A DNA stretch of 64,000 nucleotides, taken from the IMG/VR virus record IMGVR_UViG_3300025383_000009, one strand, 5' to 3'. The position numbers and the translations under genes are program-made. Of this stretch, positions 1-61,623 are shown piece by piece (positions within the stretch are counted from its first letter, which is position 1; each line of letters begins with the position of its first letter). Under the pieces are notes generated by a model that ran no database searches, was not told where the DNA came from, and worked only from the letters and a program-made list of their open reading frames with translations. The DNA comes from a virus (Duplodnaviria > Caudoviricetes).

Positions 1-345
1 ATTTAGGTTCCTATTTCGTGGAGACGGATGATCAATCTTATAATGTGGTATGTCATACTTATCACATACTTTTGATACAAATCCACCAAGTGCAATCACT
101 ACTTTACCTTGTGTCTCTGTTAGTAATGCATCCACGTCTACATCAGACATCTTATAAGAGTTTATCTTATTAGGTATCACATTATGAAACGACCATTCAT
201 ATAGACCTACTGTGTCCATCCAATCCTTCAGACGTGCAAATGTCCCATTCTTAAACGGTGTAGTTTTAGATGAGGGACATTGGCCTAAGACTATAACTTC
301 GTCAGAAGGCCTATGATATGGAAGAAAATCCGTCACTGATTTCAT
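1..345 (-). CDS. Uracil-DNA glycosylase-like superfamily protein, 3'-truncated by the window edge (absent from ORF track)
   Basis: Manual translation from ATG at 345: MKSVTDFLPYHRPSDEVIVLGQCPSS...GKVVIALGGFVSK...HYKIDHPSPRNRNLN, open to base 1. The VIALG and HPSP motifs are UDG-fold-like. Confidence 0.6.
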   Translation of the reverse strand, partial: MKSVTDFLPYHRPSDEVIVLGQCPSSKTTPFKNGTFARLKDWMDTVGLYEWSFHNVIPNKINSYKMSDVDVDALLTETQGKVVIALGGFVSKVCDKYDIPHYKIDHPSPRNRNLN

Positions 346-351
346 AATATA

Positions 352-380
352 ATTATACCCCAAAGGGTATTAAAAGTACA
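352..380 (-). promoter_or_regulatory. sigma70-type early promoter (TGTACT-N17-TATAAT)
   Basis: Exact 17-nt spacer; the ATG of the UDG-like gene lies 6 nt downstream of the -10 box. Confidence 0.6.
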
Positions 381-381
381 A

Positions 382-696
382 TTAAGCTTTAAATTGGGCG
401 TCGTTTGCACCAGCTAATACGATACCAGAACCGTAGATCCTGTTATATTCGTTTAGTAGTTCTTTCTTAACGTCAGTAATTGCTGCGATAGATGTATGAT
501 ACACTGCAATAGTGCCATCATGGTAAGGCATAAAAGGAGAGAATCCGACGGATACTGTACCTTCTTTTGTTTGGTGATATACTAATGTGACACCATTTTC
601 AATGACCATTGCACCTTCTCCTGAAGATATAAGGCCACAAATGATCTCTTCACCACTAGTAAATTTAATTAGTTTAATATCTGCCATCTTGCTCAT
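382..696 (-). CDS. Conserved T4-like hypothetical protein (Sm-like fold suspected)
   Basis: IKLIKFTSGEEII N-terminus typical of small T4-like phage proteins. Confidence 0.5.
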   Translation of the reverse strand: MSKMADIKLIKFTSGEEIICGLISSGEGAMVIENGVTLVYHQTKEGTVSVGFSPFMPYHDGTIAVYHTSIAAITDVKKELLNEYNRIYGSGIVLAGANDAQFKA

Positions 697-898
697 CCTT
701 TAAAATTATAAATTCAATAAAATTTGCTGCTTCTTCTAAATTGCTAAAGTGTTTTACAAAGAACTTATCCACATCCATCATGTGATTACCTACAACCATG
801 ACAGACATATGCTTAAGAACGGAAACCTTTAGTTGATAGTTGCCTCTCCGCAAGAACGGATAAGAAACTAAATCTTTTGTCAATTCACTCTTCATCAT
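674..898 (-). CDS. Hypothetical protein
   Basis: ORF co-oriented and overlapping with neighbours in the operon. Confidence 0.55.
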   Translation of the reverse strand: MMKSELTKDLVSYPFLRRGNYQLKVSVLKHMSVMVVGNHMMDVDKFFVKHFSNLEEAANFIEFIILKDEQDGRY

Positions 899-910
899 AT
901 ATTTATGAGA

Positions 911-928
911 GGGGAGATTGCTCTCCCC
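911..928 (-). terminator. Hairpin after hsp20 (GGGGAGA-GCAA-TCTCCCC)
   Basis: Perfect 7-bp stem with a GNRA loop just after the stop codon. No U-tract, so it may be a stabilising or processing hairpin instead. Confidence 0.45.
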
Positions 929-934
929 ATCCCT

Positions 935-1486
935 TTAACTATCCATATCGTACTGTTGACCAGAGGCGTAATTAGCATCTTTAGCGTAGTCAGTTGGGTT
1001 ATCTCTTTCATTTAAGAGTTCTCTAACACGGTCGATACCAGTAGACGGCGTTAAGTTGTCCGTGATCTCGATTTGACGAGGTTTCTTAGATTCAGGGATA
1101 ACATTCTCAAGAGCGATACGTAAGATGCCATCTTTAAATTCAGCACCACGCACTTCGACCGTATCAGCCAACTTGATTGACTTAGTGAACGAACGCGTTC
1201 CGATACCTTTGTGGAGGTATTGTACATTGCCATCATCAGGATTCTTTTGTCCTTTGATGATCAATAAGCCTTCTTCTAAAGTGATAGTTACCTCTTGCTT
1301 ATTGAAACCAGCGATAGCCAATTCAACGATATATTCGTAATCGTCTAGCTTAATAATGTTGTGAGGTGGGAATGCTTGGTTGTTGTTTAGTGGTGCTGCG
1401 AGCATCTCATCAATCTCTCTTAGCATACTTTCAAAACCAATAGTTTGTGGCCAGATAGGGCCGAATGATACATTTGTAGTTCGCAT
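935..1486 (-). CDS. hsp20: Small heat-shock protein Hsp20 (IbpA-like)
   Basis: FPPHNIIK, ELAIAGF, YLHKGIGTRSFTKSIKLAD, AEFKDGILRIAL are alpha-crystallin/IbpA motifs. Confidence 0.95.
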   Translation of the reverse strand: MRTTNVSFGPIWPQTIGFESMLREIDEMLAAPLNNNQAFPPHNIIKLDDYEYIVELAIAGFNKQEVTITLEEGLLIIKGQKNPDDGNVQYLHKGIGTRSFTKSIKLADTVEVRGAEFKDGILRIALENVIPESKKPRQIEITDNLTPSTGIDRVRELLNERDNPTDYAKDANYASGQQYDMDS

Positions 1487-1554
1487 ATTTTTCTCCTTAG
1501 TTAAGCGAGTTTAACAAAATCCTGCCCCCGAAGGCTGCAGGTTTAGGCAGTTTC

Positions 1555-1680
1555 CTACCTAAATTTATTTATAATACGAAGGAATACTTTTTTAAGTTTT
1601 TGTTTACGAGTTAATGGTGCAGGAGGACTACCGATACAGCATACTCTGTCCCATTCTCGTTGAGTATAATTAGGCTGCAT
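1555..1680 (-). CDS. 41-aa small protein MQPNYTQREWDRVCCIGSPPAPLTRKQKLKKVFLRIINKFR (absent from ORF track)
   Basis: Manual translation; overlaps the stop of the omega-like gene and fills the gap. YxQxEWDR is a motif I recall from small T4-like phage proteins. Confidence 0.5.
   Translation of the reverse strand: MQPNYTQREWDRVCCIGSPPAPLTRKQKLKKVFLRIINKFR
1566..1573 (-). promoter_or_regulatory. T4-type late promoter TATAAATA upstream of hsp20
   Basis: Exact gp55 consensus on the minus strand. Confidence 0.6.
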
Positions 1681-1933
1681 CATCTATGATGTCTTGTAGT
1701 GCTTGGTTGATTGGCTTATAGCCATAGTAGTGGAGCTTCTCTGACTTGCGGTCTAGAAAGTCTCGACGTTTTTCAATATCTCTTGCTCTATAGGCAGCTT
1801 CAAGGATCATCGTATAACGGTTACCTTCACGAGTCTTTTCATGTGCTGCAAGTACTGCTGCTACGTCTACTCTTGGTAAATCAGCCTTCTTTTTGACTTG
1901 TTGCATTCCACTGTCCTCCATAATAACGTTCAA
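1670..1933 (-). CDS. RNA polymerase omega subunit (RpoZ)-like protein
   Basis: GNRYTMILEAAYRARDI...KPINQALQDI parallels the RpoZ pattern GNR(F/Y)xLVLxAAxRAR...K(P/T)xxxALxEI. Confidence 0.6.
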   Translation of the reverse strand: MNVIMEDSGMQQVKKKADLPRVDVAAVLAAHEKTREGNRYTMILEAAYRARDIEKRRDFLDRKSEKLHYYGYKPINQALQDIIDDAA

Positions 1934-2081
1934 GTTGACCTACATTATTTAATCTTTGATCACCGTCTTGTGGTGTGTCAAGCTTAACTGACCAGTCAAT
2001 CGCATCAAAGTTCTTATCAAATTCTTTGGTGGCAGTCTTAGATAAGATGCTGTCACCGGTGATATCATTCTTTGCTGCCAT
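1881..2081 (-). CDS. Small hypothetical protein
   Basis: AKNDITGDSILSK...FDKNFDAIDW N-terminus; translationally coupled (TAATG) to the upstream micro-ORF. Confidence 0.6.
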   Translation of the reverse strand: MAAKNDITGDSILSKTATKEFDKNFDAIDWSVKLDTPQDGDQRLNNVGQLERYYGGQWNATSQKEG

Positions 2082-2146
2082 TATTTTGGCAACTTATCTT
2101 TTTTTGGACGACCTTTGCTTTCTTTTTTCTTATCACGGTTTCCCAT
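2081..2146 (-). CDS. 21-aa basic micropeptide MGNRDKKKESKGRPKKDKLPK (absent from ORF track)
   Basis: Strong RBS AAGGAG 6 nt before the ATG; its stop overlaps the next start (TAATG). Confidence 0.6.
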   Translation of the reverse strand: MGNRDKKKESKGRPKKDKLPK

Positions 2147-2156
2147 AATTTTCTCC

Positions 2157-2426
2157 TTAATATAATTTTTTAGGTGGTTGACTTGATGCTACTTTTTTCA
2201 ACCAACGTTTCTTCGCCTGACTCTTTGCTTTCTTACGAGCTACACATGGCTTTTCATACTCCATACGTTCTCTTATTTCAATCAGAAGCCCTGAGTCTTC
2301 TACTTTGTTTCTAAACTTACGAAAAGCTTTTTCAAATTGGCCTTCTTGTACGTCTACAAATAACCCTTGTTTAGAGTCACTTTGTTTTGGCCTAGGTTTA
2401 CGATTAAATTCAGCCATTAGTAACAA
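2157..2426 (-). CDS. rpsU: 30S ribosomal protein bS21
   Basis: VDVQEGQFEKAFRKFRNKVEDSGLLIEIRERMEYEKPCVARKKAK matches the bS21 pattern. Confidence 0.92.
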   Translation of the reverse strand: MLLMAEFNRKPRPKQSDSKQGLFVDVQEGQFEKAFRKFRNKVEDSGLLIEIRERMEYEKPCVARKKAKSQAKKRWLKKVASSQPPKKLY

Positions 2427-2758
2427 GTTCTCGTTCTAGTCACGTTACCATATTGATCTACTGACTCAACCCATGCTGTACAGTTTTGATATACAGTTGG
2501 AGCTTGTTGATAGATCACTGTAGGTGCTGGTTGTACATAACGTGGTTGCGCTAGTTCGTAACCGATAACTCCACCAATTAAAGCTGGAGCAACCCAATTT
2601 ACACCACCTCCATGATAATACCCACCATGGTAACCACCATAATAGCCGCCATATCCGCCATGATAACCTGCGAATGCTGAGGTTGATGCTGTCGCTAATG
2701 CTAATACTGCTATAAGTTTTTTCATTGTACTTCTCCTATTCTGAGACCATTGTACCAT
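2417..2758 (-). CDS. Secreted Gly/Tyr/His-rich small protein (signal peptide)
   Basis: MKKLIAVLALATASTSAFA signal peptide, GYHGG repeats, and a Pro/Gln-rich segment followed by a Cys pair. Real start is probably MKKL (RBS AGGAG). Confidence 0.7.
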   Translation of the reverse strand: MVQWSQNRRSTMKKLIAVLALATASTSAFAGYHGGYGGYYGGYHGGYYHGGGVNWVAPALIGGVIGYELAQPRYVQPAPTVIYQQAPTVYQNCTAWVESVDQYGNVTRTRTCY

Positions 2759-2777
2759 ATTTATTAATTATTGTACA
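2749..2777 (-). promoter_or_regulatory. Early promoter TGTACA-N17-TACAAT
   Basis: Same motif family as the other early promoters in this window. Confidence 0.55.
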
Positions 2778-3159
2778 TAGGCCCAATTGTAACAATTTGT
2801 AACCACTTTTTAGATCTATTCTTATGCCATGCCTTAATAGATTCAGACATTTTTCTTTTTTGTTCATCTGACATTACAAATGACTTTTTACCTTTAGTTG
2901 CTAAACTCATTTTGCGCTTAGTTTCTTCAGATCTAGGAACTCCTGCTAAACCGCCTTTAGTTCCTTTTTTGCTTCTACTTATCTTTTTCTTAGATTCTTC
3001 AGTATGTTTTTTACCATACCAGTGGCTTTCTTCTTTTGGAAGACCTTTATTCCATGAATCTTCTATTATAATTTCAGAGTTAGCTTCTAGTTCTTCTTTA
3101 GTTATAATCATAGTTTTAAGGGAATTAAACTCTTCTGGAACCGGGGATAAATATGACAT
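2764..3159 (-). CDS. NUMOD3-repeat DNA-binding protein (homing endonuclease-derived, no nuclease domain seen)
   Basis: GKKHTEESKKKIS, PRSEETKRKMS and SDEQKRKMS repeats. The RBS AAGGAG favours a start at MSYLSP (3159) over 3222. Confidence 0.75.
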   Translation of the reverse strand: MSYLSPVPEEFNSLKTMIITKEELEANSEIIIEDSWNKGLPKEESHWYGKKHTEESKKKISRSKKGTKGGLAGVPRSEETKRKMSLATKGKKSFVMSDEQKRKMSESIKAWHKNRSKKWLQIVTIGPMYNN

Positions 3160-3226
3160 GCTGGCACTCCTTTTAGTGTTAGAGTCCTTGGAGATTGCCG
3201 TCTCGCGAAGGACATTTTTCATATTA

Positions 3227-3234
3227 TATTTATA
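3227..3234 (-). promoter_or_regulatory. Late promoter TATAAATA
   Basis: Exact consensus upstream of the NUMOD3 gene. Confidence 0.6.
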
Positions 3235-3260
3235 AAAAAGGGACCTCTAGGATCCCTTTT
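3234..3260 (-). terminator. Rho-independent terminator after pqqA
   Basis: AAAAGGGATCC-TAGA-GGTCCCTTTTTT: stem plus U-tract. Confidence 0.75.
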
Positions 3261-3280
3261 ATTCTTTAAGAATGATCGAA

Positions 3281-3352
3281 TTAACGATTCATTACATAAA
3301 GGGTAACTTCAAAGCCAAAGCGCATTTCAGTTGCTTGAGGTTTCGTCCACAT
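3281..3352 (-). CDS. pqqA: Pyrroloquinoline quinone precursor peptide PqqA (absent from ORF track)
   Basis: Manual translation MWTKPQATEMRFGFEVTLYVMNR (23 aa) with the invariant E-x3-Y; RBS AAAGGAG; terminator downstream. Confidence 0.93.
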   Translation of the reverse strand: MWTKPQATEMRFGFEVTLYVMNR

Positions 3353-3535
3353 AGTATTTCTCCTTTGTTTATAAAAATTTATAAACTCAGATCGTTAGAG
3401 AGAACGGCTTTTAACTCAGACATTCAAGGTCTAACTTGAGGCTCATATTCCTGTAGAGTTTCCCCTACATTACTATCTATACAATACTCTTAAAAAGAGA
3501 CTAGTTAAAAGTATTAATACTTAGTAATCCTGTGC

Positions 3536-3979
3536 TTAATATTCTGTATCAGATTTAGGCATCCTTTTGATGCCACCAATGTTATATTTTGGTACGAGTT
3601 CCCACTCACCCTTCTCTTTAAAGGACACTACCTTTATCTGAGATAAGCTAGCTTTTGGTTCTGCCTTAGACTTATCAAGGATCTTCAGCAGACCCCAGTC
3701 TTGAAGGAGTTCAGCAATGATATTGCGTCTCTCAATGTCAGACATGGAGATATCCGATTCCTTGCCATCTAGGGCAAATAATTCTTTGAAATGTACAATG
3801 AAGTACTTTCCTTGTTTATGTAGTATGTGGCATGATTGGAATAGCTTTTTGTCTTTTCGACTTGCTATACCTATGCGAGTTAGAGTCTCTCTGACTTTGA
3901 GGAAGTTATCCGGTTCGATCAAGTCAACTTCTAACATTGCATCTGGTGTCCAATCATAATATATCATGATACTTGTCAT
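3536..3979 (-). CDS. regA: RegA translational repressor
   Basis: FLKVRETLTRIGIAS...QSCHILHKQGKYFIVHFKELFALDG. Confidence 0.95.
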   Translation of the reverse strand: MTSIMIYYDWTPDAMLEVDLIEPDNFLKVRETLTRIGIASRKDKKLFQSCHILHKQGKYFIVHFKELFALDGKESDISMSDIERRNIIAELLQDWGLLKILDKSKAEPKASLSQIKVVSFKEKGEWELVPKYNIGGIKRMPKSDTEY

Positions 3980-4009
3980 TATAAATCTTTCTTTATTGAT
4001 TACATTATA

Positions 4010-4017
4010 TATTTATA
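4010..4017 (-). promoter_or_regulatory. Late promoter TATAAATA upstream of regA
   Basis: Exact consensus. Confidence 0.5.
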
Positions 4018-4023
4018 AGACTA

Positions 4024-4404
4024 TTAGTTTCTACCACCCTTATCATAGGCTTGCCTGATCTCCTCCATCTGCATTGTGGATAGGATACTGAGGACTTCAT
4101 GTGCTCTCTTCTCAGAGTAGTTATAGTGCTTCATGATAAGCTTGACCTGATCTGTGGTTGCATCCCTCTTATGCCACTTGGAGAACCTCTTCTTTTTAGG
4201 GATAGAGTTCTTGAGGAATTCAAACTGCCACTGTGTAGGGATCTGGGCGTGCATGTTCATCTCGTTGGCATACATCACTGTATCCGGGAAGAACGATAAC
4301 CCACGGTTGATCATGAAGGGAGCATAGTCCTTGGATGCCTGTGGATCCTGGAATAAGTCCTTCTTGTTCTCGTTTATGGCATTAAGGAAATCAAATGGTG
4401 TCAT
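4024..4404 (-). CDS. gp62: Clamp loader small subunit gp62
   Basis: PFDFLNAIN, YAPFMINRGLSFFPDTVMYANEMN; position after gp44. Confidence 0.93.
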   Translation of the reverse strand: MTPFDFLNAINENKKDLFQDPQASKDYAPFMINRGLSFFPDTVMYANEMNMHAQIPTQWQFEFLKNSIPKKKRFSKWHKRDATTDQVKLIMKHYNYSEKRAHEVLSILSTMQMEEIRQAYDKGGRN

Positions 4405-4585
4405 TTACCCATTCCTCTGCTGCAGCTTCTGCGATATCTTCATCTAACTGAGAATCTCTACTGATTAACTTACCGTCTTGGTATAGTTCTGCTATAAACC
4501 ATCTACCCCACTTATTAACCTTTGCTGTCTTGCCATTATCTTGGCCAAAGTATTCACTTAAAAATACTGTCTCAATATTACTCAT
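4391..4585 (-). CDS. Hypothetical protein
   Basis: Overlapping co-oriented ORF. Confidence 0.55.
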   Translation of the reverse strand: MSNIETVFLSEYFGQDNGKTAKVNKWGRWFIAELYQDGKLISRDSQLDEDIAEAAAEEWVNDTI

Positions 4586-4887
4586 TTTAAACCTACCTCT
4601 TCAAGATTTTGTTTGTTTGCCATGAAATTTGTATCGGGAAACCGTTTTTGTAGTAATGCGGTTATCTCGCCTCTTGTATTACCTTGTGCTAAGAACTGTT
4701 GGGTGTCTCTATTATATGCTAGTATGGCATGTTCCATCTTAACAAAGTTTATATTAACTATCTTTTTTTGAGGTAATGGAGCATCAGCAATATTACCTAA
4801 GATCTTTTGCACTTTATAATATATAAGGATCTTAAGTGCTATCCAACCTAAAAAGAATCCTGAGACAAACGTAAGAAAATAGTTCAT
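4582..4887 (-). CDS. Hypothetical protein with N-terminal membrane anchor
   Basis: Hydrophobic N-terminus MNYFLTFVSGFFLGWIALKILIYY. Confidence 0.55.
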   Translation of the reverse strand: MNYFLTFVSGFFLGWIALKILIYYKVQKILGNIADAPLPQKKIVNINFVKMEHAILAYNRDTQQFLAQGNTRGEITALLQKRFPDTNFMANKQNLEEVGLK

Positions 4888-5093
4888 GCCTTCCCTTCGA
4901 ATGGTGGAGTCCCACCGTTTTTAATATACTCGTCATAGCTACGCATCTTAACATTATGGATAGCTATCGCTGTTTCACGGATATTCTCCATCTTGTCTCC
5001 AGCTGGGTTTGACTGTACAAAACCTCGTTCGATTAGGTATGATGCTTTGTCCCAATCGTCTGAGTCGTATTCTCTTTTTACTTCATCTTGCAT
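4884..5093 (-). CDS. Hypothetical protein
   Basis: Overlapping co-oriented ORF. Confidence 0.5.
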   Translation of the reverse strand: MQDEVKREYDSDDWDKASYLIERGFVQSNPAGDKMENIRETAIAIHNVKMRSYDEYIKNGGTPPFEGKA

Positions 5094-6010
5094 GATGACA
5101 TAACCTCCGTAAGTGCAGCCATGAGGTTTAGTTCATGATCTGCAACGAACGCAGCCTTATACTGATAGTCAGCAAGTATCAATACTAATTGTGGGATACT
5201 AGCTGGCTCCATGTTTACTGAAGCTGTGTCGTATAGTTGTCTAAAGATATTTATAGTCTCTGAGTCTCCGTTCTTAGCTACCCACTTCCTAACTTCTGTG
5301 AAGTTCTTTTCCTTCATGTTGTTGATGAGTTGCTTGAATGAGTCTTCAGTCATGTTTACAAGGATGCCAGCATCGATCTTACCTGACACTGAATATCTCT
5401 GTAATTCGTTTAGTACACGTCTCCAATCAGGAAAGTGTTTAGTGACCAACTCTGCTACCACCTTCTGGTCTGCTTCAACGTTCTCTTGCTTTAAGATGTT
5501 CATGGTACGTTTGAAGAAGGACGCTGCGATCTCTTGCTTCTCTGTATTCTCGATCTTAAAGTCAATGACTGAACATCTACTATGTAACGGCTCGATGATA
5601 CGGTTCTTATAGTTACATGTAAAGATGAAACGACAGTTGTTAGAGAACTCTTCGATGAATGCTCTAAGCGCTGGTTGTGTAGAATTTGGGTTTAGATAGT
5701 CTGCTTCGTCTAGTATGATGACCTTCTTAGCGTCAGTCAACGATACTGTTGAGGCAAAGGATTTGATCTTGGTTCGAAGGACATCGATACCAGATTCTTC
5801 GGATCCGTTTATGAGAAGATACTCGGCTCCGATCTCGTTACATAATGCTTTGGCAACGGTGGTCTTACCCACACCTGCCGTACCACAAAATAAGAAGTTA
5901 GGCAGTTCACCGGTTTGGACGAACTGCTTGAATGTTTCTTTTAAGTTCTTTGGTAAAATACAATCTTCGATCGTCTGAGGTCTGTAGCGTTCAACCCATA
6001 AATATTCCAT
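5078..6010 (-). CDS. gp44: Clamp loader large subunit gp44 (AAA+)
   Basis: LWVERYRPQTIEDCILP, Walker A GTAGVGKT, ILDEAD, SRC motif. Confidence 0.97.
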   Translation of the reverse strand: MEYLWVERYRPQTIEDCILPKNLKETFKQFVQTGELPNFLFCGTAGVGKTTVAKALCNEIGAEYLLINGSEESGIDVLRTKIKSFASTVSLTDAKKVIILDEADYLNPNSTQPALRAFIEEFSNNCRFIFTCNYKNRIIEPLHSRCSVIDFKIENTEKQEIAASFFKRTMNILKQENVEADQKVVAELVTKHFPDWRRVLNELQRYSVSGKIDAGILVNMTEDSFKQLINNMKEKNFTEVRKWVAKNGDSETINIFRQLYDTASVNMEPASIPQLVLILADYQYKAAFVADHELNLMAALTEVMSSCKMK

Positions 6011-6034
6011 AATATCTCCATAATATAAATTAGC

Positions 6035-6712
6035 TTACGCTTCAAATGTTGAATCAGCTTCAACTGCTACATAATACACTAGATCACCTGCGCCTTTAAA
6101 GCGTGAGATCTTTTTAGATGAGATAGAAACATCATAGTCACCTGGTACCATCTTAAGGTTCTCGATCTTGAGGTTCACCTTAAACACCGATGTTGTCGTA
6201 CCTAAGGTATATGTATATGCATTTGATGTTGCATTCTTCTTATCACCCACGACCACTTGGATGGTTGATCCATCACCCAACAGTGCAACATCTGTAGACT
6301 TGAGGATTGGTGCGGTCTTGAGGATCATAGCTAATACGTTTGCTTCAAGCTTGAAGTTGATCTCTGCATCGGGGAATACGATCTCTTTCTTAGGTACAAC
6401 GATAGAGTTAGGTGCTGCAGCAAAGTACTTGATACTGCTGTTACCTTGTTTCACTGTCACTGTCTTTTCAGAGAACTCAAGATCTGGATCCTCAAATAAT
6501 GATAGCACAGCAAGGAACTCGTTCACATCATAGATACCGAACTCATTAGGGAATGTTTCAGTAACTGTACATGATGACATGATGGTGTTACTTACTGCAA
6601 TTGTAGATAGTACATTGCCTGGTTTAAATAACAAGTTGTTATTGATTGAGGCATAGTTTTTAATCAGTGCCAATGTTTCTTTACTTAGTTTCATTATATT
6701 TTCCTTCATCAA
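6035..6712 (-). CDS. gp45: Sliding clamp gp45
   Basis: MKLSKETLALIKNYASIN...FGIYDVNEFL...YYVAVEADS. Confidence 0.95.
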   Translation of the reverse strand: MMKENIMKLSKETLALIKNYASINNNLLFKPGNVLSTIAVSNTIMSSCTVTETFPNEFGIYDVNEFLAVLSLFEDPDLEFSEKTVTVKQGNSSIKYFAAAPNSIVVPKKEIVFPDAEINFKLEANVLAMILKTAPILKSTDVALLGDGSTIQVVVGDKKNATSNAYTYTLGTTTSVFKVNLKIENLKMVPGDYDVSISSKKISRFKGAGDLVYYVAVEADSTFEA

Positions 6713-7019
6713 GATCTAACATAAACATTAAACAACAAATCGCATGAGCTATATGATTGACTCCTGTTTCAGGATCATACATCTCACCTTCTTTATATGC
6801 CCACAGGTGTCTCTGTGCTGCATCAAAATACCTACGATTGCCATCTGGTACTCTACGCCAATTATCAGGCTCATACTTCTCTGCGCCAAATGTCAATACT
6901 TTAACAGTCTCGCGTAAAGCGAGAGGTGGAATAAGTCCATATTGCAACTTACCACCATCGAATTTGCGTCCACCTTTGTGGTCTTTACTCTGCGAAATCT
7001 TTAATTCGTCTTTAGTCAT
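6681..7019 (-). CDS. DUF5664-type dATP/dGTP diphosphohydrolase-like protein
   Basis: GRKFDGGKLQYGLIP...GAEKYEPDNW...RHL...DPETGVNHIAHAICCLMF. Confidence 0.8.
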   Translation of the reverse strand: MTKDELKISQSKDHKGGRKFDGGKLQYGLIPPLALRETVKVLTFGAEKYEPDNWRRVPDGNRRYFDAAQRHLWAYKEGEMYDPETGVNHIAHAICCLMFMLDLDEGKYNETK

Positions 7020-7032
7020 CGTGTCTCCTCTG

Positions 7033-7083
7033 TTTAGAACTCTCAGTTAAGAACTCTAAAGAGAGGAGGCATTGCGCCTCCTC
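7033..7083 (-). other. Two intergenic hairpins upstream of the DUF5664/gp45 operon
   Basis: GAGGAGGC-GCAAT-GCCTCCTC, then TTTAGAGTTCT-TAACTG-AGAGTTCTAAA, which pairs fully (with two G-U pairs) only as minus-strand RNA. Confidence 0.5.
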
Positions 7084-7109
7084 GAACTGACTTACTAGAG
7101 AATTGACTC

Positions 7110-7484
7110 TTAGAATGCTGAACCACCTAATACAGCATAAGCTGCAGCAATCATTTTACGGCTTGGTGTACCTAATCTGTAACGAGTAGTTGATTCACCA
7201 TTCCAAAGTGTAGAATTGTTTGCATAAACTGCATAACCCTTCATACGTAATTGACGAACTGCTTCATGCGGGTTAGCAAGACCAAATCGTGCAGTGATTT
7301 GTTTAGCAGTTACTGTTTTACCTGATTTAAGGTAATTGATTAATGATGTTGTTGCTGACATACTATTACTCCTTGAAATTGCGACGTTACGGGAAATGCT
7401 GATAAGATTGTCGCTTGTCTTACCGAATACTGTACCATTATACACTGGTTTTGAATTAAAGTTAAATAATTTTTTTAAGTTCAT
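7110..7484 (-). CDS. Winged-HTH-like DNA-binding protein (conserved in T4-like phages); likely start at 7361
   Basis: LINYLKSGKTVTAKQITARFGLANPHEAVRQLRMKGY...YRLGTPSR; RBS AAGGAG precedes MSATT. Confidence 0.65.
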   Translation of the reverse strand: MNLKKLFNFNSKPVYNGTVFGKTSDNLISISRNVAISRSNSMSATTSLINYLKSGKTVTAKQITARFGLANPHEAVRQLRMKGYAVYANNSTLWNGESTTRYRLGTPSRKMIAAAYAVLGGSAF

Positions 7485-7490
7485 AATATA

Positions 7491-7826
7491 TTATGGCTTT
7501 AGGCCATACTCCTTGATCACGTTATTTAATAATGGTGAGAACTTAGATAAGTCAATCACCGCTTCTACATTTCCACTGAGGTAATCCTCCATCTCCGATT
7601 CAGTGGGGACCGGAAATCCATAAACACTTTTCAACTTCTTATTCTCTGCTACTATAAGCCAATTAGGATAGCCTAACTTGGGACATCCATCTTCTCTGGC
7701 ATCGACCATAATCTTATGATAGTCTTTTATCTGAGTAAGATCTATAGTCTCATCAGAGTGATTGAAGCGATTCATCACCTCAATCACGTACATCTTTTGT
7801 GTTGGCTTTAGTTCTTTAAATTGCAT
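7491..7826 (-). CDS. Hypothetical protein
   Basis: Co-oriented ORF overlapping cobS. Confidence 0.55.
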   Translation of the reverse strand: MQFKELKPTQKMYVIEVMNRFNHSDETIDLTQIKDYHKIMVDAREDGCPKLGYPNWLIVAENKKLKSVYGFPVPTESEMEDYLSGNVEAVIDLSKFSPLLNNVIKEYGLKP

Positions 7827-9042
7827 CGTTTGTAACCGTAGTTGTTACTGTTTGGCTAGCTGTAGCTGCATTATAAGCATCTGATATAGTTGCATAAGCT
7901 GCAGCATCACTACTATTCACTGGATCATGTAACACTTCTGGTGCTGGGTTTGATATCTTATCAAATACATCCATGAATGCAGCTTTAGTTTGTGGATCGA
8001 AACGGTTACAACATAACTCGATCGCTTTCTCTTTCTTTTTGAAGATTGAGAATGCTCGTACGATATGAGTCATACGACGGGTTGTGATGGTCTCGTCTAC
8101 ACCACCGTCTTCGAATGTGCGACGGATAGCATCAGCCCATTTAATCAATGTGTCTGCAAAGTCTTGGTCCTCACAGTTATAATGCTTCATAAGGTTCTTA
8201 ACGATCTTCATCTCGACTGATGCATTAGGATACTCTTGTTCGAATGTCACTGCGAAACGCTCGAGGAATGCTTCGTTAAGTACGTTTGTGCCGATGTATC
8301 GGCCATCGTCTGAACCTTTACCCTTTGTGTTAGCTGTAGCAATGATGTTAAAGCCAGCAGCTGGAACTATAACCTCGTTCTTAAGCTTGAAGTAGTAAGG
8401 CTTGCCTTCGAGGATAGGCTGTAAACACAATAGTGTGTTAGCTGAACCAGCATCCACTTCGTCAAGCAATAATGTATAACCGTTACGTAGAGCAATCAAT
8501 ACTGGGCCTTCCACGATCTCCACGTTACCATTAATAAGTGTCTTAGCACCAATAAGTTGCTCTTCGTCAGACATCATGTTAAGGTTAACACGAATAAGTG
8601 GCTTACCAAATTTAGCGCAGATCTGCTCGATCATGGTTGACTTACCGTTACCCGTAGGGCCGGAAATATAAGATGGATAGAAAAGTCCAGCTTTGATGAT
8701 CATCTCGAGATCTGAATAGTTGCCAAATGGTACATAGTTTGGGTCCTTGGCTGGGATTAATGTCTCAGGTCTATCGAAGTTTACGATGGCTTGGCTTTCA
8801 ATTTTTACTGGGGTTTGAACCACTGAAAGCACTGGCTTTGGAATTACTGAAGGCACCTTCACGTTATAAACACCACGTGACACCTGACCAGCAATCATGA
8901 ACCAAGGCATAGTATCATAACCTAATGAATTTACCACTGTCATAAGATCGGTCTTACTGATCTCAGGGGTTTTAACTAGACCTGGATAGGTCTCGAATAG
9001 TTTAGCTTGAACTTCAAGCTTTTGTTCACTTTTATATCTCAT
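7816..9042 (-). CDS. cobS: CobS/MoxR-like AAA+ ATPase
   Basis: YISGPTGNGKST, LLLDEVDAG, ATANTKGKGSDDGRYIGTNVLNEAFLERF, typical of T4-like aquatic phages. Confidence 0.92.
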   Translation of the reverse strand: MRYKSEQKLEVQAKLFETYPGLVKTPEISKTDLMTVVNSLGYDTMPWFMIAGQVSRGVYNVKVPSVIPKPVLSVVQTPVKIESQAIVNFDRPETLIPAKDPNYVPFGNYSDLEMIIKAGLFYPSYISGPTGNGKSTMIEQICAKFGKPLIRVNLNMMSDEEQLIGAKTLINGNVEIVEGPVLIALRNGYTLLLDEVDAGSANTLLCLQPILEGKPYYFKLKNEVIVPAAGFNIIATANTKGKGSDDGRYIGTNVLNEAFLERFAVTFEQEYPNASVEMKIVKNLMKHYNCEDQDFADTLIKWADAIRRTFEDGGVDETITTRRMTHIVRAFSIFKKKEKAIELCCNRFDPQTKAAFMDVFDKISNPAPEVLHDPVNSSDAAAYATISDAYNAATASQTVTTTVTNDAI

Positions 9043-9162: not shown

Positions 9163-11274
9163 TTATGCCACCAGCCCTATAAACTGATTAAGCAATATGC
9201 GACTGGTCTTCTTATTTGAGAGCATCTTGGTGAGCTCCCGGGCGATCCTGGATGCGCTTTCCTTTTTACCTATAGAAAGCTCTTTGTCATCCTCAATCTT
9301 AGCTCTGGATTCAGCCACTATGAAGAGCTCGTCCCGACCTGTATCCTTCATTGATGCAAAGCCATTCTTACGAAGATCTCTCTTCATGTCTTCGATACCC
9401 ATAGCTGAGATGTGTGAGCCATGACCATAATGAGCTACGAATGCATTGTGTAGATATCTGAACGTTGGTCGTGTGATGTAAAATCCTACAGTAGTGATAG
9501 CATGTCTATCCTTAATCATCTGTAAGAGTGACTTAGTTTGCTCTGCGTTCTCTGACATTGGATAGTTCTTACGAGTTACTGTATCAGATAAGAACGGCTT
9601 GACAGTAACATAGTCTTTGCCATTATAGTTTCGTTTCATCCTGATCTGATCAAATCCAGTTCTTAAGTACTCGCCTTCACCGTCAGTCAATGTGATGAGC
9701 GTCATCTTTTCTGTACCGTTCTTACTCTTAAATTCTGGGATGTAGTTGTATAACCATGCTAACGCAGAATTCAATGGAGTACCAGATGTTTTAAAGTTGT
9801 GAAGGTTATAGAATAACCTTGATAAAGTGATGGTGATCATCTTATTAAATTCTGATTGAGTCATCTTAGATGAGAATAACTCCATCATAGTAAGACCAAA
9901 CGTGTCAACTTCAGATTCACCTGCTGTCATCATACGGGTACCATCAGCGTTTCTGTACTTAGTATCAGACCAACCGTTTGTGAATGCAAATACTTGGAAT
10001 GGGATCTGAGCACCTCTACAAAACATTGCTAATGATACGACTTGCTCGATCGTTGGTCTTAACACATGATCCATTGAAGCTGACCAATCCAATAAGAATA
10101 TCATACCATGACTTTTACCGTTAGGGATAGACATCACTTGTTTGAATATGTCATCGTTTAGTTTATAAGCATAAAGCTTTTTACCATCCAATGAACCAGT
10201 CTTTGCGACCTTAGCACGTTTATAGTTTTGTGCTGACTTACGCATCTCGAATTCTTTTACTAAGTAGCTAACTACGTTCTTAGATGATGCTTTAAACTTC
10301 TCAGCGCGTTCTACGTCATCATCATTAATTACTGAAGCACCGCTAGCATTCCATTCTGCTTCATATTCTGCATGCTCTGCAAATACTTCTTTATAGGTAA
10401 CCATTGGATTGACCTTAAATTGTTTAGGGATAGTGATGTACTTGTATTCGATTGAAGTATCAGCTAATTCTTGAAGCTTCTTATCTAAGTTCTTTTCAGT
10501 TTGTGACTCTAACTGATCTTCGAGTGAGTCTTCAAGGTCTTGAAGCGGATCCGTTTTGGTTGATGGTGATGATTGCTCGTCTTCGATCTGATCAGTCTCT
10601 TCCTCATCTGCATCAAAGTCTTGCATCTGTGAATTACCTTGCTCTTCAGACTCTTCTTCTTCAAATTCTTCGTGATCGTCTGACAATGCTTTCATCTGTT
10701 CGATCTTGTCTTCCATAGCTTTCTTAGAATAGTCATAGATCTCTTTAGCTAACGCGATCACATCTTTACATGTCTCAGTCTCTTCAGCACGTCTTACGAA
10801 TGCTTTCTCTTCAGCATTAAAAGTAACACCGCATGAATAACCAGCTTTGAAATATAGGTTGATCTTATCGATGAGTAACATATCTTTGAAACCGTTAGCT
10901 ACACCAAAGAAGTCTCGATTATTAAGTTCTTTATAACCTAAGTTGAATGACTTACGAAGACCAGGATATCTGCGCTTCATAAGCTTCTCGATACGTACAT
11001 CCTCAAGCACGTTCATATAGCCTGAGAAGTGAGGGGTATCTTTATAAGGGTTTTTAGTTGAATACTCTTCAAGAGTAGTGTAAAGCGCGTGACCTACTTC
11101 ATGACCAACTAACATATCAATAAGATCGTTAGTCATGTCCTTCCATTGTGGAAGTCTTAGGACACGATTTTTGATGTCAAACGATGCTGTAGATACAGGT
11201 GCCTGTATAACAGTAAGGTTTTCGTTTGCTAATAATTTTGCTACTAAGTCAGTTTTTGTCATCAATCTCTCCAA
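9163..11274 (-). CDS. CobT-like metallopeptidase/VWA protein (partner of CobS)
   Basis: HEVGHALYT (HExxH), acidic linker, FLLDWSASM MIDAS motif, GTPLN, LTDGEG. Confidence 0.88.
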   Translation of the reverse strand: MERLMTKTDLVAKLLANENLTVIQAPVSTASFDIKNRVLRLPQWKDMTNDLIDMLVGHEVGHALYTTLEEYSTKNPYKDTPHFSGYMNVLEDVRIEKLMKRRYPGLRKSFNLGYKELNNRDFFGVANGFKDMLLIDKINLYFKAGYSCGVTFNAEEKAFVRRAEETETCKDVIALAKEIYDYSKKAMEDKIEQMKALSDDHEEFEEEESEEQGNSQMQDFDADEEETDQIEDEQSSPSTKTDPLQDLEDSLEDQLESQTEKNLDKKLQELADTSIEYKYITIPKQFKVNPMVTYKEVFAEHAEYEAEWNASGASVINDDDVERAEKFKASSKNVVSYLVKEFEMRKSAQNYKRAKVAKTGSLDGKKLYAYKLNDDIFKQVMSIPNGKSHGMIFLLDWSASMDHVLRPTIEQVVSLAMFCRGAQIPFQVFAFTNGWSDTKYRNADGTRMMTAGESEVDTFGLTMMELFSSKMTQSEFNKMITITLSRLFYNLHNFKTSGTPLNSALAWLYNYIPEFKSKNGTEKMTLITLTDGEGEYLRTGFDQIRMKRNYNGKDYVTVKPFLSDTVTRKNYPMSENAEQTKSLLQMIKDRHAITTVGFYITRPTFRYLHNAFVAHYGHGSHISAMGIEDMKRDLRKNGFASMKDTGRDELFIVAESRAKIEDDKELSIGKKESASRIARELTKMLSNKKTSRILLNQFIGLVA

Positions 11275-60246: not shown

Positions 60247-61623
60247 TTAAATTGGTTGTATGCTTATAATCTTCTTACCAGTCTTAGGTTCTGGTATCCC
60301 TTTTACAGCTCCGATGATGTCTTTTCTAGACTCATCAAGGTCTCCGTCAATATAGTATGGGAGACATCCTGTTAACATCTCAAACGCAGCCATGAAGAAC
60401 GGTATGTTATCAGAGTAAGCGTTATCACATGCTAGGCTCCACATATCTCCATGTAAAAACATGCATGAACCTTGACATATCTGTAATACTGGACATGTAG
60501 GACACTCTTCTCTATGACTCCAGTGTGTACTAGTCTTTAACTTGATGTTGTCAAAGTCATTAACGTTACCGATAAGGTGACTCTCACCATTAAATCCTAT
60601 AGCTACAGAGCTAACGTTTTGACATGTTAGCACGTTACCTTTTAAATCTACTGCAATATTGTGTTCATCATCCATCGTACACTTCTGACCTACAGCAACA
60701 GCTGGTCTTTTGGTTTGTATAGATGTTATGAACTCGTTGATCTTCTTCTTAGTGGCACCAACATTAGTTCCAAGTCCACTTCTTACTTCTTTAAACGTAT
60801 TAGCTCGATAGTTAAGGTGATCGTGTTCATCAGTAAAACAAACGCTAGCACCACCTTCATCATATGGATCAATGAACCCACCTTCTCCGATAGGTACATC
60901 AAACCCAAGTTTATCTTTAAACCATTGACTTATGGCTGCACGGCTTTGGTTATCTTTATTCACCATAGCGTTAAAGCTCATACGATTCTTTGGTCCTAAC
61001 CTATTCCATAGATCCATGATCATCGCGAATTGTTCTGGATCATCGAATGGGTCTAACCCTCTAACATGATAACCTGGTCCATCATGTGATATACCAACAC
61101 TAAACCCTAAGTTATCAAGCCATTCATTCTTTTCTAAGTCTAATATAGTACCATTAGTCACTATACCAAATGCTATGTTTGGATACATCTTCCTCATGCC
61201 TTCAGCAAGAGGCTTTAGACTCTTCCAATATACAAAGGGCTCACCACCCCAAAATTCTACTTTAACTCCAGTACCGTCTTTATTATCACCACCATCAAAC
61301 CATGTTGGTAGTTGATCTAAGAACGGACCTACATCATCCTTTGTCATCTCATCAGCTTTAGGTACAAACCTTTGACTGCAGTAGACACATTCATAATTAC
61401 AAGATAAGCCTAGCTGTATCTTGAGGATCTTAATATCTTTACTCTTTTTTGCTGGAGTGTCTTTACTTGTAGTAAACACTTCTTTATAGGAACGAGTATT
61501 ACCGTTACTAAAATCTATCACGTTTCCATTTGCATCTGATATCTCAGAAGTCATGTTATCATACCAAAACTCTACATCTTCATTTGTTACAGGTCTCACA
61601 CATTTTATATTAAACTTCGCCAT
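60247..61623 (-). CDS. Radical SAM/SPASM-domain enzyme (anSME/AslB-like peptide or protein maturase)
   Basis: CNYECVYC (CxxxCxxC), FWGGEP, TNGT, ISHDGP; SPASM cysteines KC...GNVLTC...ECPTCPVLQICQGSC...AC. Confidence 0.92.
   Translation of the reverse strand: MAKFNIKCVRPVTNEDVEFWYDNMTSEISDANGNVIDFSNGNTRSYKEVFTTSKDTPAKKSKDIKILKIQLGLSCNYECVYCSQRFVPKADEMTKDDVGPFLDQLPTWFDGGDNKDGTGVKVEFWGGEPFVYWKSLKPLAEGMRKMYPNIAFGIVTNGTILDLEKNEWLDNLGFSVGISHDGPGYHVRGLDPFDDPEQFAMIMDLWNRLGPKNRMSFNAMVNKDNQSRAAISQWFKDKLGFDVPIGEGGFIDPYDEGGASVCFTDEHDHLNYRANTFKEVRSGLGTNVGATKKKINEFITSIQTKRPAVAVGQKCTMDDEHNIAVDLKGNVLTCQNVSSVAIGFNGESHLIGNVNDFDNIKLKTSTHWSHREECPTCPVLQICQGSCMFLHGDMWSLACDNAYSDNIPFFMAAFEMLTGCLPYYIDGDLDESRKDIIGAVKGIPEPKTGKKIISIQPI

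What the first reader, a model, noticed from the sequence alone, without database searches (positions are those of the whole stretch)
3281..3352. Phage-encoded PqqA precursor as a stand-alone transcription unit
Seen: the 23-aa ORF MWTKPQATEMRFGFEVTLYVMNR with RBS and its own terminator, missed by the ORF track; no other pqq genes are in the window. Known: Glu and Tyr of ExxxY are cross-linked by the host rSAM PqqE to make PQQ, the cofactor of methanol and alcohol dehydrogenases, and PqqA is consumed stoichiometrically. Inference: the phage boosts PQQ supply in a PQQ-dependent, probably methylotrophic betaproteobacterial host.
Basis: partly seen in the sequence, partly recalled or inferred. Interest (0 to 1): 0.7.

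Follow-up and report, generated by a model that had tools for sequence, protein, structure and literature searches.

The report
Phage copy of PQQ precursor gene
A freshwater T4-like phage carries a real 23-codon copy of pqqA, the small peptide that methanol-eating bacteria use up to make the cofactor PQQ. It is a genuine, conserved gene, but viral copies were already reported in 2020 and this scan has met them many times.

Summary
Window 3281-3352 (minus strand) encodes MWTKPQATEMRFGFEVTLYVMNR, which scores well above the curated cut-offs of Pfam PqqA and TIGR02107. It has a GGAG ribosome-binding site 7 nt upstream and a hairpin plus U-run terminator downstream.

No pqqB, C, D or E is present in the whole 127.6-kb virus record, which is about 74% complete.

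The gene sits just downstream of regA in the T4-type replication module. That position is kept in at least 11 related viral contigs whose clamp loader is only 54-94% identical.

The same peptide type occurs in nine GenBank phages of Methylophilales/Methylophilaceae, mostly unannotated, and in at least 120 IMG/VR contigs, never next to pqqB-E. Among bacteria sampled it is almost confined to Methylophilaceae, which carry PqqE and 2-6 dispersed pqqA copies.

Best reading: the phage supplies the consumed precursor to the host's PqqBCDE so that PQQ-dependent methanol oxidation keeps running during infection.

Two things are not shown: a promoter of its own, and expression.

Viral PqqA was reported by Coutinho et al. 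2020, and this scan has logged the same thing on other DNA (58 notes, at least 37 genomes). This is a new member of a known kind.

The parts
3281..3352 (-). pqqA coding sequence: 23 codons plus TAA. The cross-link residues are Glu15 and Tyr19 (ExxxY).
   Evidence: Translation. PF08042 40.3 bits and TIGR02107 36.8 bits, both above cut-off. 20 of 23 residues match the commonest Methylophilaceae PqqA.
3360..3366 (-). Shine-Dalgarno AAAGGAG, 7 nt before the ATG
   Evidence: Read directly. An SD-like GGAG/AGGA lies in the 20 nt upstream of nearly all 121 viral copies.
3234..3260 (-). Intrinsic terminator: A-tract, GGGATC/GGTCCC stem, CTAGA loop, run of six T
   Evidence: Fold at -12.9 kcal/mol. The same hairpin position in L012, L015, L086 and L117 has a fifth stem pair reading T-G, G-C, C-G, G-T and A-T.
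3376..3383 (-). TATAAATT, a T4-late-promoter-like octamer 23 nt before the ATG. It is a candidate only.
   Evidence: The canonical TATAAATA is 22:2 biased to the coding strand in the record, but the TATAAATT variant is 6:5, so this site has no support of its own.
3353..3535 (-). 183-nt regA-pqqA spacer with stable hairpins but no hairpin plus T-run terminator. Read-through from regA is therefore possible.
   Evidence: Fold at -43.7 kcal/mol, z -2.25. No sigma-70-like site was listed here. More distant relatives do have a hairpin plus T-run in this spacer.
3536..3979 (-). regA (T4 translational repressor), the upstream neighbour that marks the conserved insertion site
   Evidence: PF01818 153.9 bits. 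regA-pqqA synteny in at least 11 viral loci.
2764..3222 (-). Downstream neighbour: a NUMOD3 DNA-binding protein (homing-endonuclease-like) behind a canonical TATAAATA at 3234-3227. The likely true start is Met22 at about 3159, which has its own SD.
   Evidence: PF07460 62.2 bits, weak PHROG endonuclease matches. tblastn with this protein found no match in the closest relative L015.

Best explanation
This is a genuine pqqA gene carried by a lytic-type, T4-like freshwater phage of Methylophilaceae. The phage makes only the 23-residue precursor. The host's PqqD is expected to bind its N-terminal leader, and the host's radical-SAM enzyme PqqE to cross-link Glu15 to Tyr19. Host PqqB, PqqC and peptidases would then finish PQQ. 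One PqqA is destroyed for each PQQ made, and these hosts depend on PQQ-dependent methanol dehydrogenase for energy. A phage copy therefore keeps up, or raises, the supply of the one consumable part of the pathway while host gene expression is taken over. The logic is the same as for cyanophage psbA. Shown here: the identity of the gene, its translation signals and terminator, purifying selection, long retention at one site, the lack of pqqB-E in phages, and the presence of pqqB-E in the hosts. Inferred: expression, processing by host enzymes, and any benefit to the phage.
For: Family scores are above the curated cut-offs. ExxxY and the leader residues are intact, and 20 of 23 residues match the commonest Methylophilaceae peptide. 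The setting is viral: an IMG/VR record with regA, gp62, gp44 and gp45 beside the gene. No pqqB, C, D or E was found in the record, in 120 other viral loci, or, for PqqE and PqqC, in five GenBank phage records, four of them described as complete genomes. Hosts have the enzymes: 5 of 5 Methylophilaceae genomes have PqqE above cut-off plus 2-6 dispersed pqqA copies, and L248 carries pqqABCDE in a row. Selection: 107 distinct coding sequences among 121 viral copies, all exactly 23 codons, with pS 0.64 against pN 0.105. Retention: regA-pqqA synteny in at least 11 loci with gp44 identity of 54-94%. Recurrence: pqqA is present in Venkman, MEP301, MEP401/402, P19250A and Melnitz, and the viral loci fall into at least 5 gene-context groups. 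In four freshwater metagenomes the pqqA stretch alone is shared by many contigs whose flanks differ. Demand: xoxF is the most transcribed gene of an OM43 strain (PMC5120137). Precedent: PMC7678222.
Against: There is no expression evidence of any kind. No promoter of its own could be shown. PQQ is a recycled cofactor, so fresh synthesis during one infection cycle may matter little unless apo-enzyme is still being made or PQQ is lost. Leu18 was seen only in viral copies (7 of 121 viral, 0 of 130 bacterial), and its effect on processing is unknown. The pN/pS value is biased low because the search pattern fixed 11 residues. The record is only about 74% complete.
Confidence: 0.7

Rival explanations
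1. The phage pqqA serves a phage-encoded PQQ-dependent dehydrogenase, as proposed for the Lake Baikal population VP_266, which also carries methanol dehydrogenase. On this reading it does not serve the host's own enzymes.
For: Coutinho et al. 2020 report PqqA together with a viral methanol dehydrogenase. About 26% of this genome is missing.
Against: No PQQ-dependent alcohol dehydrogenase (TIGR03075) was found in the 127.6 kb held. I saw no dehydrogenase annotated in the 5-12 kb stretches around pqqA that I read in Melnitz, Venkman, MEP301 and P19250A, and the Melnitz paper does not mention methanol dehydrogenase; I did not search those whole genomes for one.
Confidence: 0.1
2. The gene is a neutral passenger: a captured host 'orphan pqqA' cassette that persists without benefit to the phage.
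For: DNA similarity to bacterial orphan copies covers the SD, the coding sequence and the terminator region (75-85% over 77-144 nt), as expected for a captured cassette. It is tiny, so it costs little.
Against: Silent sites are near saturation while the peptide is kept, and all 121 copies keep exactly 23 codons. The site is retained across relatives with only 54-60% identical gp44. The gene recurs in at least 5 gene-context groups.
Confidence: 0.08
3. The peptide acts differently from a substrate. It might be a decoy that ties up PqqD/PqqE, or a small regulatory or signalling peptide.
For: Position 6 is more variable in viral copies, and Leu18 was seen only in viral copies.
Against: The commonest viral peptide is identical to the commonest host peptide, so most viral copies should be processed like the host's. 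Glu15 and Tyr19 are kept in every copy retrieved, but the search pattern required them, so that is no independent evidence. No benefit of blocking PQQ synthesis is apparent.
Confidence: 0.06

Closest known systems
Viral PqqA of Lake Baikal Methylophilaceae phages (population VP_266; Coutinho et al. 2020, Microbiome 8:163, PMC7678222)
   Same: A PqqA precursor peptide encoded by a freshwater virus predicted to infect methylotrophs. It was proposed as an auxiliary metabolic gene that supports PQQ-dependent methanol oxidation.
   Different: That virus also carries methanol dehydrogenase, and none was found in this record. Here the gene lies at a fixed site after regA in a T4-like replication module.
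Dispersed 'orphan' pqqA copies of Methylophilaceae chromosomes (PF08042 / TIGR02107)
   Same: 23 residues with the same leader and ExxxY core, 20 of 23 identical. They stand alone with their own SD and terminator, away from pqqBCDE: only 25 of 119 bacterial loci sampled had pqqB nearby. DNA similarity extends over the SD, the gene and the terminator.
   Different: This copy is carried on a phage genome. Gln6, Leu18 and Arg23 differ from the commonest host peptide, and Leu18 was not seen in the 130 bacterial copies sampled.
Unannotated pqqA of cultured methylophages (Venkman, MEP301, MEP401/402, P19250A, Melnitz)
   Same: 77-87% identical 23-residue peptides in phages with proven Methylophilales or Methylophilaceae hosts. 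Searches in four of them found no PqqE or PqqC.
   Different: The sites differ. In Venkman and MEP301 the gene lies on the strand opposite to its neighbours, near recombination genes. In P19250A it follows a co-oriented gene and converges on the next one. In Melnitz it lies beside tRNA genes ahead of the baseplate hub, and an antisense hypothetical CDS is annotated over it.
Cyanophage psbA (D1 protein), named from general knowledge as an analogy and not tested here
   Same: The phage carries only the fast-consumed component of a host energy-yielding system and relies on the host for the rest.
   Different: psbA encodes a structural reaction-centre protein. Here the product is a sacrificial peptide turned into a cofactor. 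There is no sequence relationship.

Membership tests
PqqA (PF08042 / TIGR02107) | Profile score above the curated cut-off | tested here: met
   40.3 bits against 21.1, and 36.8 bits against 20.
PqqA (PF08042 / TIGR02107) | Short peptide carrying the Glu-x-x-x-Tyr pair that becomes PQQ | tested here: met
   23 residues, with Glu15-Val-Thr-Leu-Tyr19.
PqqA (PF08042 / TIGR02107) | N-terminal leader of the kind bound by PqqD (role of the leader: PMC10906245) | tested here: met
   Residues 1-5 and 7-17 are identical to the commonest Methylophilaceae PqqA. Binding itself was not tested.
PqqA (PF08042 / TIGR02107) | Linked in cis to pqqBCDE | tested here: not met
   None in the record. This is not a strict requirement: only 25 of 119 bacterial pqqA loci had pqqB in the flanks, and hosts carry 2-6 dispersed copies.
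PqqA (PF08042 / TIGR02107) | Converted to PQQ by PqqE, PqqD, PqqB and PqqC | not testable with these tools
   This needs biochemistry or complementation. The peptide is under the 30-residue limit of the complex predictor.
Phage auxiliary metabolic gene | Host-derived metabolic gene inside a true viral genome, under selection | tested here: met
   T4-type neighbours, pS 0.64 against pN 0.105, and syntenic retention.
Phage auxiliary metabolic gene | Expressed during infection and alters host metabolism | not testable with these tools
   No RNA data could be obtained.
Stand-alone transcription unit | Own terminator | tested here: met
   51 of 119 viral copies and 111 of 127 bacterial copies have a terminator-like hairpin.
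Stand-alone transcription unit | Own promoter | tested here: inconclusive
   No sigma-70-like site was listed in the spacer. TATAAATT lies 23 nt upstream, but that variant shows no strand bias. There is no clear terminator after regA in this phage.

The most novel reading that the evidence does not exclude
pqqA may be a near-universal, independently acquired hallmark of phages infecting Methylophilaceae: at least 5 gene-context groups, three tail types, and both marine and freshwater habitats. If so, supply of the sacrificial peptide, rather than of any enzyme, would be the step of PQQ synthesis that fails first in an infected cell. A 69-nt gene would then serve as a host-prediction marker for uncultured methylophages. 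It would also be a clean case of a virus borrowing a host peptide-maturation pathway by bringing only the substrate.
Probability: 0.45. Interest if true: 0.45.

Novelty: new member of a known kind. Interest (0 to 1): 0.3.

Why it matters
Methylophilaceae (OM43, LD28/Ca. Methylopumilus, Methylotenera) are major consumers of methanol in lakes and coastal seas, and their energy supply runs through PQQ-dependent methanol dehydrogenase. A phage gene that feeds this cofactor pathway would tie viral infection directly to C1 carbon turnover.

In practice the gene is too short for gene callers. It is unannotated in most GenBank methylophage records and matches no PHROG family. Because of that it is a useful, overlooked marker for assigning uncultured phages to methylotroph hosts.

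The idea itself is not new (Coutinho et al. 2020), and no experiment has yet tested it.

Tried and rejected
I used degenerate DNA patterns instead.
- Megablast of window 1-8000 against GenBank phages found no match.
- Rfam at gathering scores found nothing in the window. No tRNA genes were found.
- I looked for a host signal with the phage S21 protein in 300 genomes of the class. Identity was 36-48% everywhere, so it gave no signal.
- No RNA holder was listed for this stretch. The four runs laid were DNA contigs and cannot show expression, starts or ends.
- The 17-nt motif shared with relatives downstream of regA occurs once in the window, so it is not a repeated promoter element.
- The consensus promoter/terminator scan listed neither a promoter nor the terminator for pqqA. 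The terminator rests on the fold and on covariation.
- The antisense 55-aa ORF at 3272-3439 (+) matches no Pfam or PHROG family. It is rejected as the real gene because selection acts on the pqqA frame.
- An integration-site (attP) reading is rejected. Identity to the best bacterial copy is at most 82% over 72 nt, and there is no long exact match.
- The radical-SAM/SPASM gene at 60247-61623 was considered as a phage PqqE and rejected.
- Complex prediction was not used, because PqqA is below its 30-residue minimum.

Full report
**The observation**

The minus strand of window 3281-3352 reads MWTKPQATEMRFGFEVTLYVMNR followed by TAA. Short ORFs are plentiful here: there are 127 of at least 20 aa in the first 9 kb. 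This one, however, matches Pfam PqqA (PF08042) at 40.3 bits against a cut-off of 21.1, and TIGR02107 at 36.8 bits against 20.

AAAGGAG lies at 3366-3360, 7 nt before the ATG. Downstream, 3260-3236 folds into a 10-bp stem with a 5-nt loop, followed by a run of U, at -12.9 kcal/mol. The consensus scan did not list this terminator.

The same hairpin is kept in four syntenic relatives, and its stem covaries. The fifth pair reads T-G, G-C, C-G, G-T and A-T in the window, L012, L015, L086 and L117.

**The setting**

The window is bases 16340-80339 of a 127,626-base linear IMG/VR virus record that CheckV rates at about 74% complete. The genes just upstream on the same strand are:
- regA (PF01818, 153.9 bits);
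- the clamp-loader small subunit gp62;
- gp44;
- the sliding clamp gp45.

Downstream lie a NUMOD3 protein, ribosomal protein S21, an omega-like protein and Hsp20. The gp44 protein is at best about 60% identical to uncultured marine viruses and T4-like cyanophages.

The stretch is held by many freshwater metagenomes. One contig in another sample covers 2653-3939 without a single difference. So this is a freshwater T4-like phage.

**No other pqq genes**

Family searches for PqqE, PqqC, PqqB and PqqD over the whole record found nothing at E up to 0.1. tblastn with PqqB-E taken from a Methylophilaceae pqqABCDE operon also found nothing (L248, identified; search). No PQQ-dependent alcohol dehydrogenase was found.

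I checked it. Its best NCBIfam matches are ranthipeptide-type and geopeptide-type maturases, all far below their cut-offs. PqqE is not among the 25 matches shown, and BLASTP against a real PqqE gives nothing significant. It is not a phage PqqE.

**Relatives in phages**

tblastn of the peptide against GenBank phages gave 12 records. Nine are named Methylophilales or Methylophilaceae phages with cultured hosts: Venkman, MEP301, MEP401, MEP402, P19250A and four Melnitz isolates, at 77-87% identity.

No correct-strand pqqA CDS is annotated in the records I opened:
- In Venkman, MEP301 and P19250A nothing is annotated at the site.
- In Melnitz and in MW202481 an antisense hypothetical CDS is called over it.
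- In Venkman, MEP301 and MW202481 the gene lies on the strand opposite to its neighbours.

All encode exactly 23 residues, nearly all have an SD-like motif upstream, and all have 31-47% G+C.

None of the 120 has pqqB-E in its flanks, whereas 25 of 119 bacterial loci have pqqB. Five GenBank phage records, four of them described as complete genomes, lack PqqE and PqqC. PHROGs has no family that matches the peptide.

By shared flanking proteins the viral loci fall into at least five larger groups, of 68, 18, 14, 6 and 5 loci. The largest group contains the Venkman-, MEP301- and P19250A-like phages. In 36 loci both neighbours lie on the opposite strand.

**Retention in the T4-like group**

At least 11 viral loci share the order gp44-gp62-regA-pqqA, with gp45 too where the contig reaches that far. 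Their gp44 identity to the window ranges from 54% to 94%. The gene has therefore stayed at this site through long divergence.

tblastn with the NUMOD3 protein and the Gly/Tyr-rich secreted protein found no match in the closest relative, L015 (gp44 94% identical). Both therefore look like insertions in the window's phage.

In Melnitz, also T4-like, pqqA lies elsewhere, next to tRNA genes ahead of the baseplate hub. That implies a separate acquisition or a move.

**Selection**

Among 121 viral copies there are 107 distinct coding sequences. Pairwise pS is 0.64 and pN is 0.105. For example, Arg11 uses CGT 57 times and AGA 46 times, and every copy stops at codon 24.

One caveat applies. The search pattern fixed 11 residues, so pN is biased low. 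Phe12, Phe14 and Asn22 were not fully fixed by the pattern and are still conserved.

**Host**

Of the 80 rows shown:
- 52 are named Methylophilaceae genera (Methylophilus, Methylotenera, Methylobacillus, Methylovorus, Ca. Methylopumilus, Novimethylophilus).
- 24 carry generic beta-proteobacterial or proteobacterial names.
- Only 4 are named otherwise.

The commonest bacterial peptide (59 of 131) is identical to the commonest viral one (30 of 121). The window's peptide differs from it at three positions: Gln6, Leu18 and Arg23. Leu18 was seen in 7 viral copies and in no bacterial copy.

Five Methylophilaceae genomes of 1.0-2.9 Mb all have PqqE above cut-off and 2-6 pqqA copies scattered over the genome. 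These hosts therefore already multiply the precursor gene.

DNA similarity between the window and bacterial orphan copies is 75-85% over 77-144 nt. In the longest of these matches it covers the SD, the gene and the terminator region. That fits an old capture of a whole cassette rather than an attachment site.

In four freshwater metagenomes the summed contig depth over 3271-3337 is about 7 to 30 times that of the adjacent bins, and loose ends sit at both borders of the gene. Many genomes in those waters therefore share just this stretch.

**Transcription**

The record carries the T4 late-promoter octamer TATAAATA 22 times on the coding strand and twice on the other strand. One copy, at 3234-3227, overlaps the last T of the pqqA terminator and serves the NUMOD3 gene. 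That gene's likely true start is Met22, which has its own SD.

Upstream of pqqA there is only TATAAATT (3383-3376), and that variant shows no strand bias (6:5). No sigma-70-like site was listed in the 183-nt spacer. The spacer folds stably but lacks a hairpin plus T-run. More distant relatives do have such a terminator after regA, followed by a -10-like element.

So an own SD and an own terminator are shown. An own promoter is not, and read-through from regA remains possible. No RNA data could be found.

**Mechanism**

From established PQQ biochemistry, PqqD binds the leader of PqqA, PqqE cross-links the Glu and Tyr, and one peptide is consumed per cofactor (PMC10906245).

The phage peptide keeps all these features, the phage has none of the enzymes, and the hosts have all of them. 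The hosts' dominant transcript is the PQQ-dependent methanol dehydrogenase xoxF (PMC5120137).

The best-supported reading is that the phage supplies the consumable precursor so that PQQ-dependent energy generation continues during infection. I put this at about 0.7.

The rivals are:
- service to a phage-borne dehydrogenase in the missing part of the genome (0.1);
- a neutral captured cassette (0.08);
- a decoy or other peptide role (0.06).

**Novelty**

Coutinho et al. 2020 (PMC7678222) already reported PqqA in a Lake Baikal methylophage and proposed the same role. The Melnitz paper does not mention it, and I found no paper stating that the gene is general among cultured methylophages.

This scan has logged the same finding on other DNA: 58 notes in at least 37 genomes. 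My own tests agree with those notes.

What is particular to this window is the fixed site after regA in a freshwater T4-like lineage and the Leu18 variant. It is a new member of a known kind, of modest interest.

Noticed in passing
window 2764-3222 (-) and 2417-2758 (-): A NUMOD3-only protein (three NUMOD3 motifs, no nuclease domain recognised) sits behind a canonical TATAAATA. Next to it is a signal-peptide-bearing Gly/Tyr-rich 113-aa protein with no family match. tblastn with either protein found no match in the closest relative L015, so they look like a recent insertion between pqqA and the S21 gene.
   Followed up: partly
window 2157-2426 (-), 1670-1933 (-), 935-1486 (-): The phage encodes ribosomal protein S21 (54.6 bits), an RNA-polymerase omega/Rpb6-like protein (25 bits, just under the cut-off of 26) and Hsp20. 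A phage omega-like subunit is unusual.
   Followed up: no
whole record G000 (window offset 16339): TATAAATA occurs 22 times on the coding strand and twice on the other strand, often 20-85 nt ahead of a start codon with an SD. The phage therefore appears to use T4-type late promoters.
   Followed up: partly
window 60247-61623 (-): This radical-SAM/SPASM enzyme, flagged by earlier notes as part of an Asn-Cys fibre-tail system, is not PqqE. PqqE is not among its 25 NCBIfam matches shown, and it shows no BLASTP similarity to a Methylophilaceae PqqE.
   Followed up: partly
L002 6001-6066 (+), L249/L250/L251 2501-2569 (+), L252 2119-2187 (+): GenBank records of Melnitz, Venkman, MEP301, P19250A and MW202481 all contain an intact pqqA. 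It is either unannotated or overlaid by an antisense 'hypothetical protein' call.
   Followed up: yes
window 3501-3517 (-): The 17-nt motif TTAATACTTTTAACTAG just after regA is shared with relatives L015, L086 (twice) and L117, but occurs only once in the window. It forms part of a long AU-rich hairpin. Its function is unknown.
   Followed up: partly
window 3271-3337: In four freshwater metagenomes the summed contig depth over pqqA is about 7 to 30 times that of the adjacent bins, and contigs break off at both gene borders. The cassette is shared by many genomes in the same water.
   Followed up: partly
window 7816-9042 (-) and 9163-11274 (-): Two large genes look by eye like the CobS-type AAA ATPase and CobT-type VWA protein pair common in marine T4-like phages. 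I did not check them against any family library.
   Followed up: no
window 382-696 (-): A 104-aa protein matches phrog_527 (unknown function) and, weakly, phrog_471, which is annotated 'methylamine utilization'. That would be of interest in a methylotroph phage, but the match is weak.
   Followed up: no
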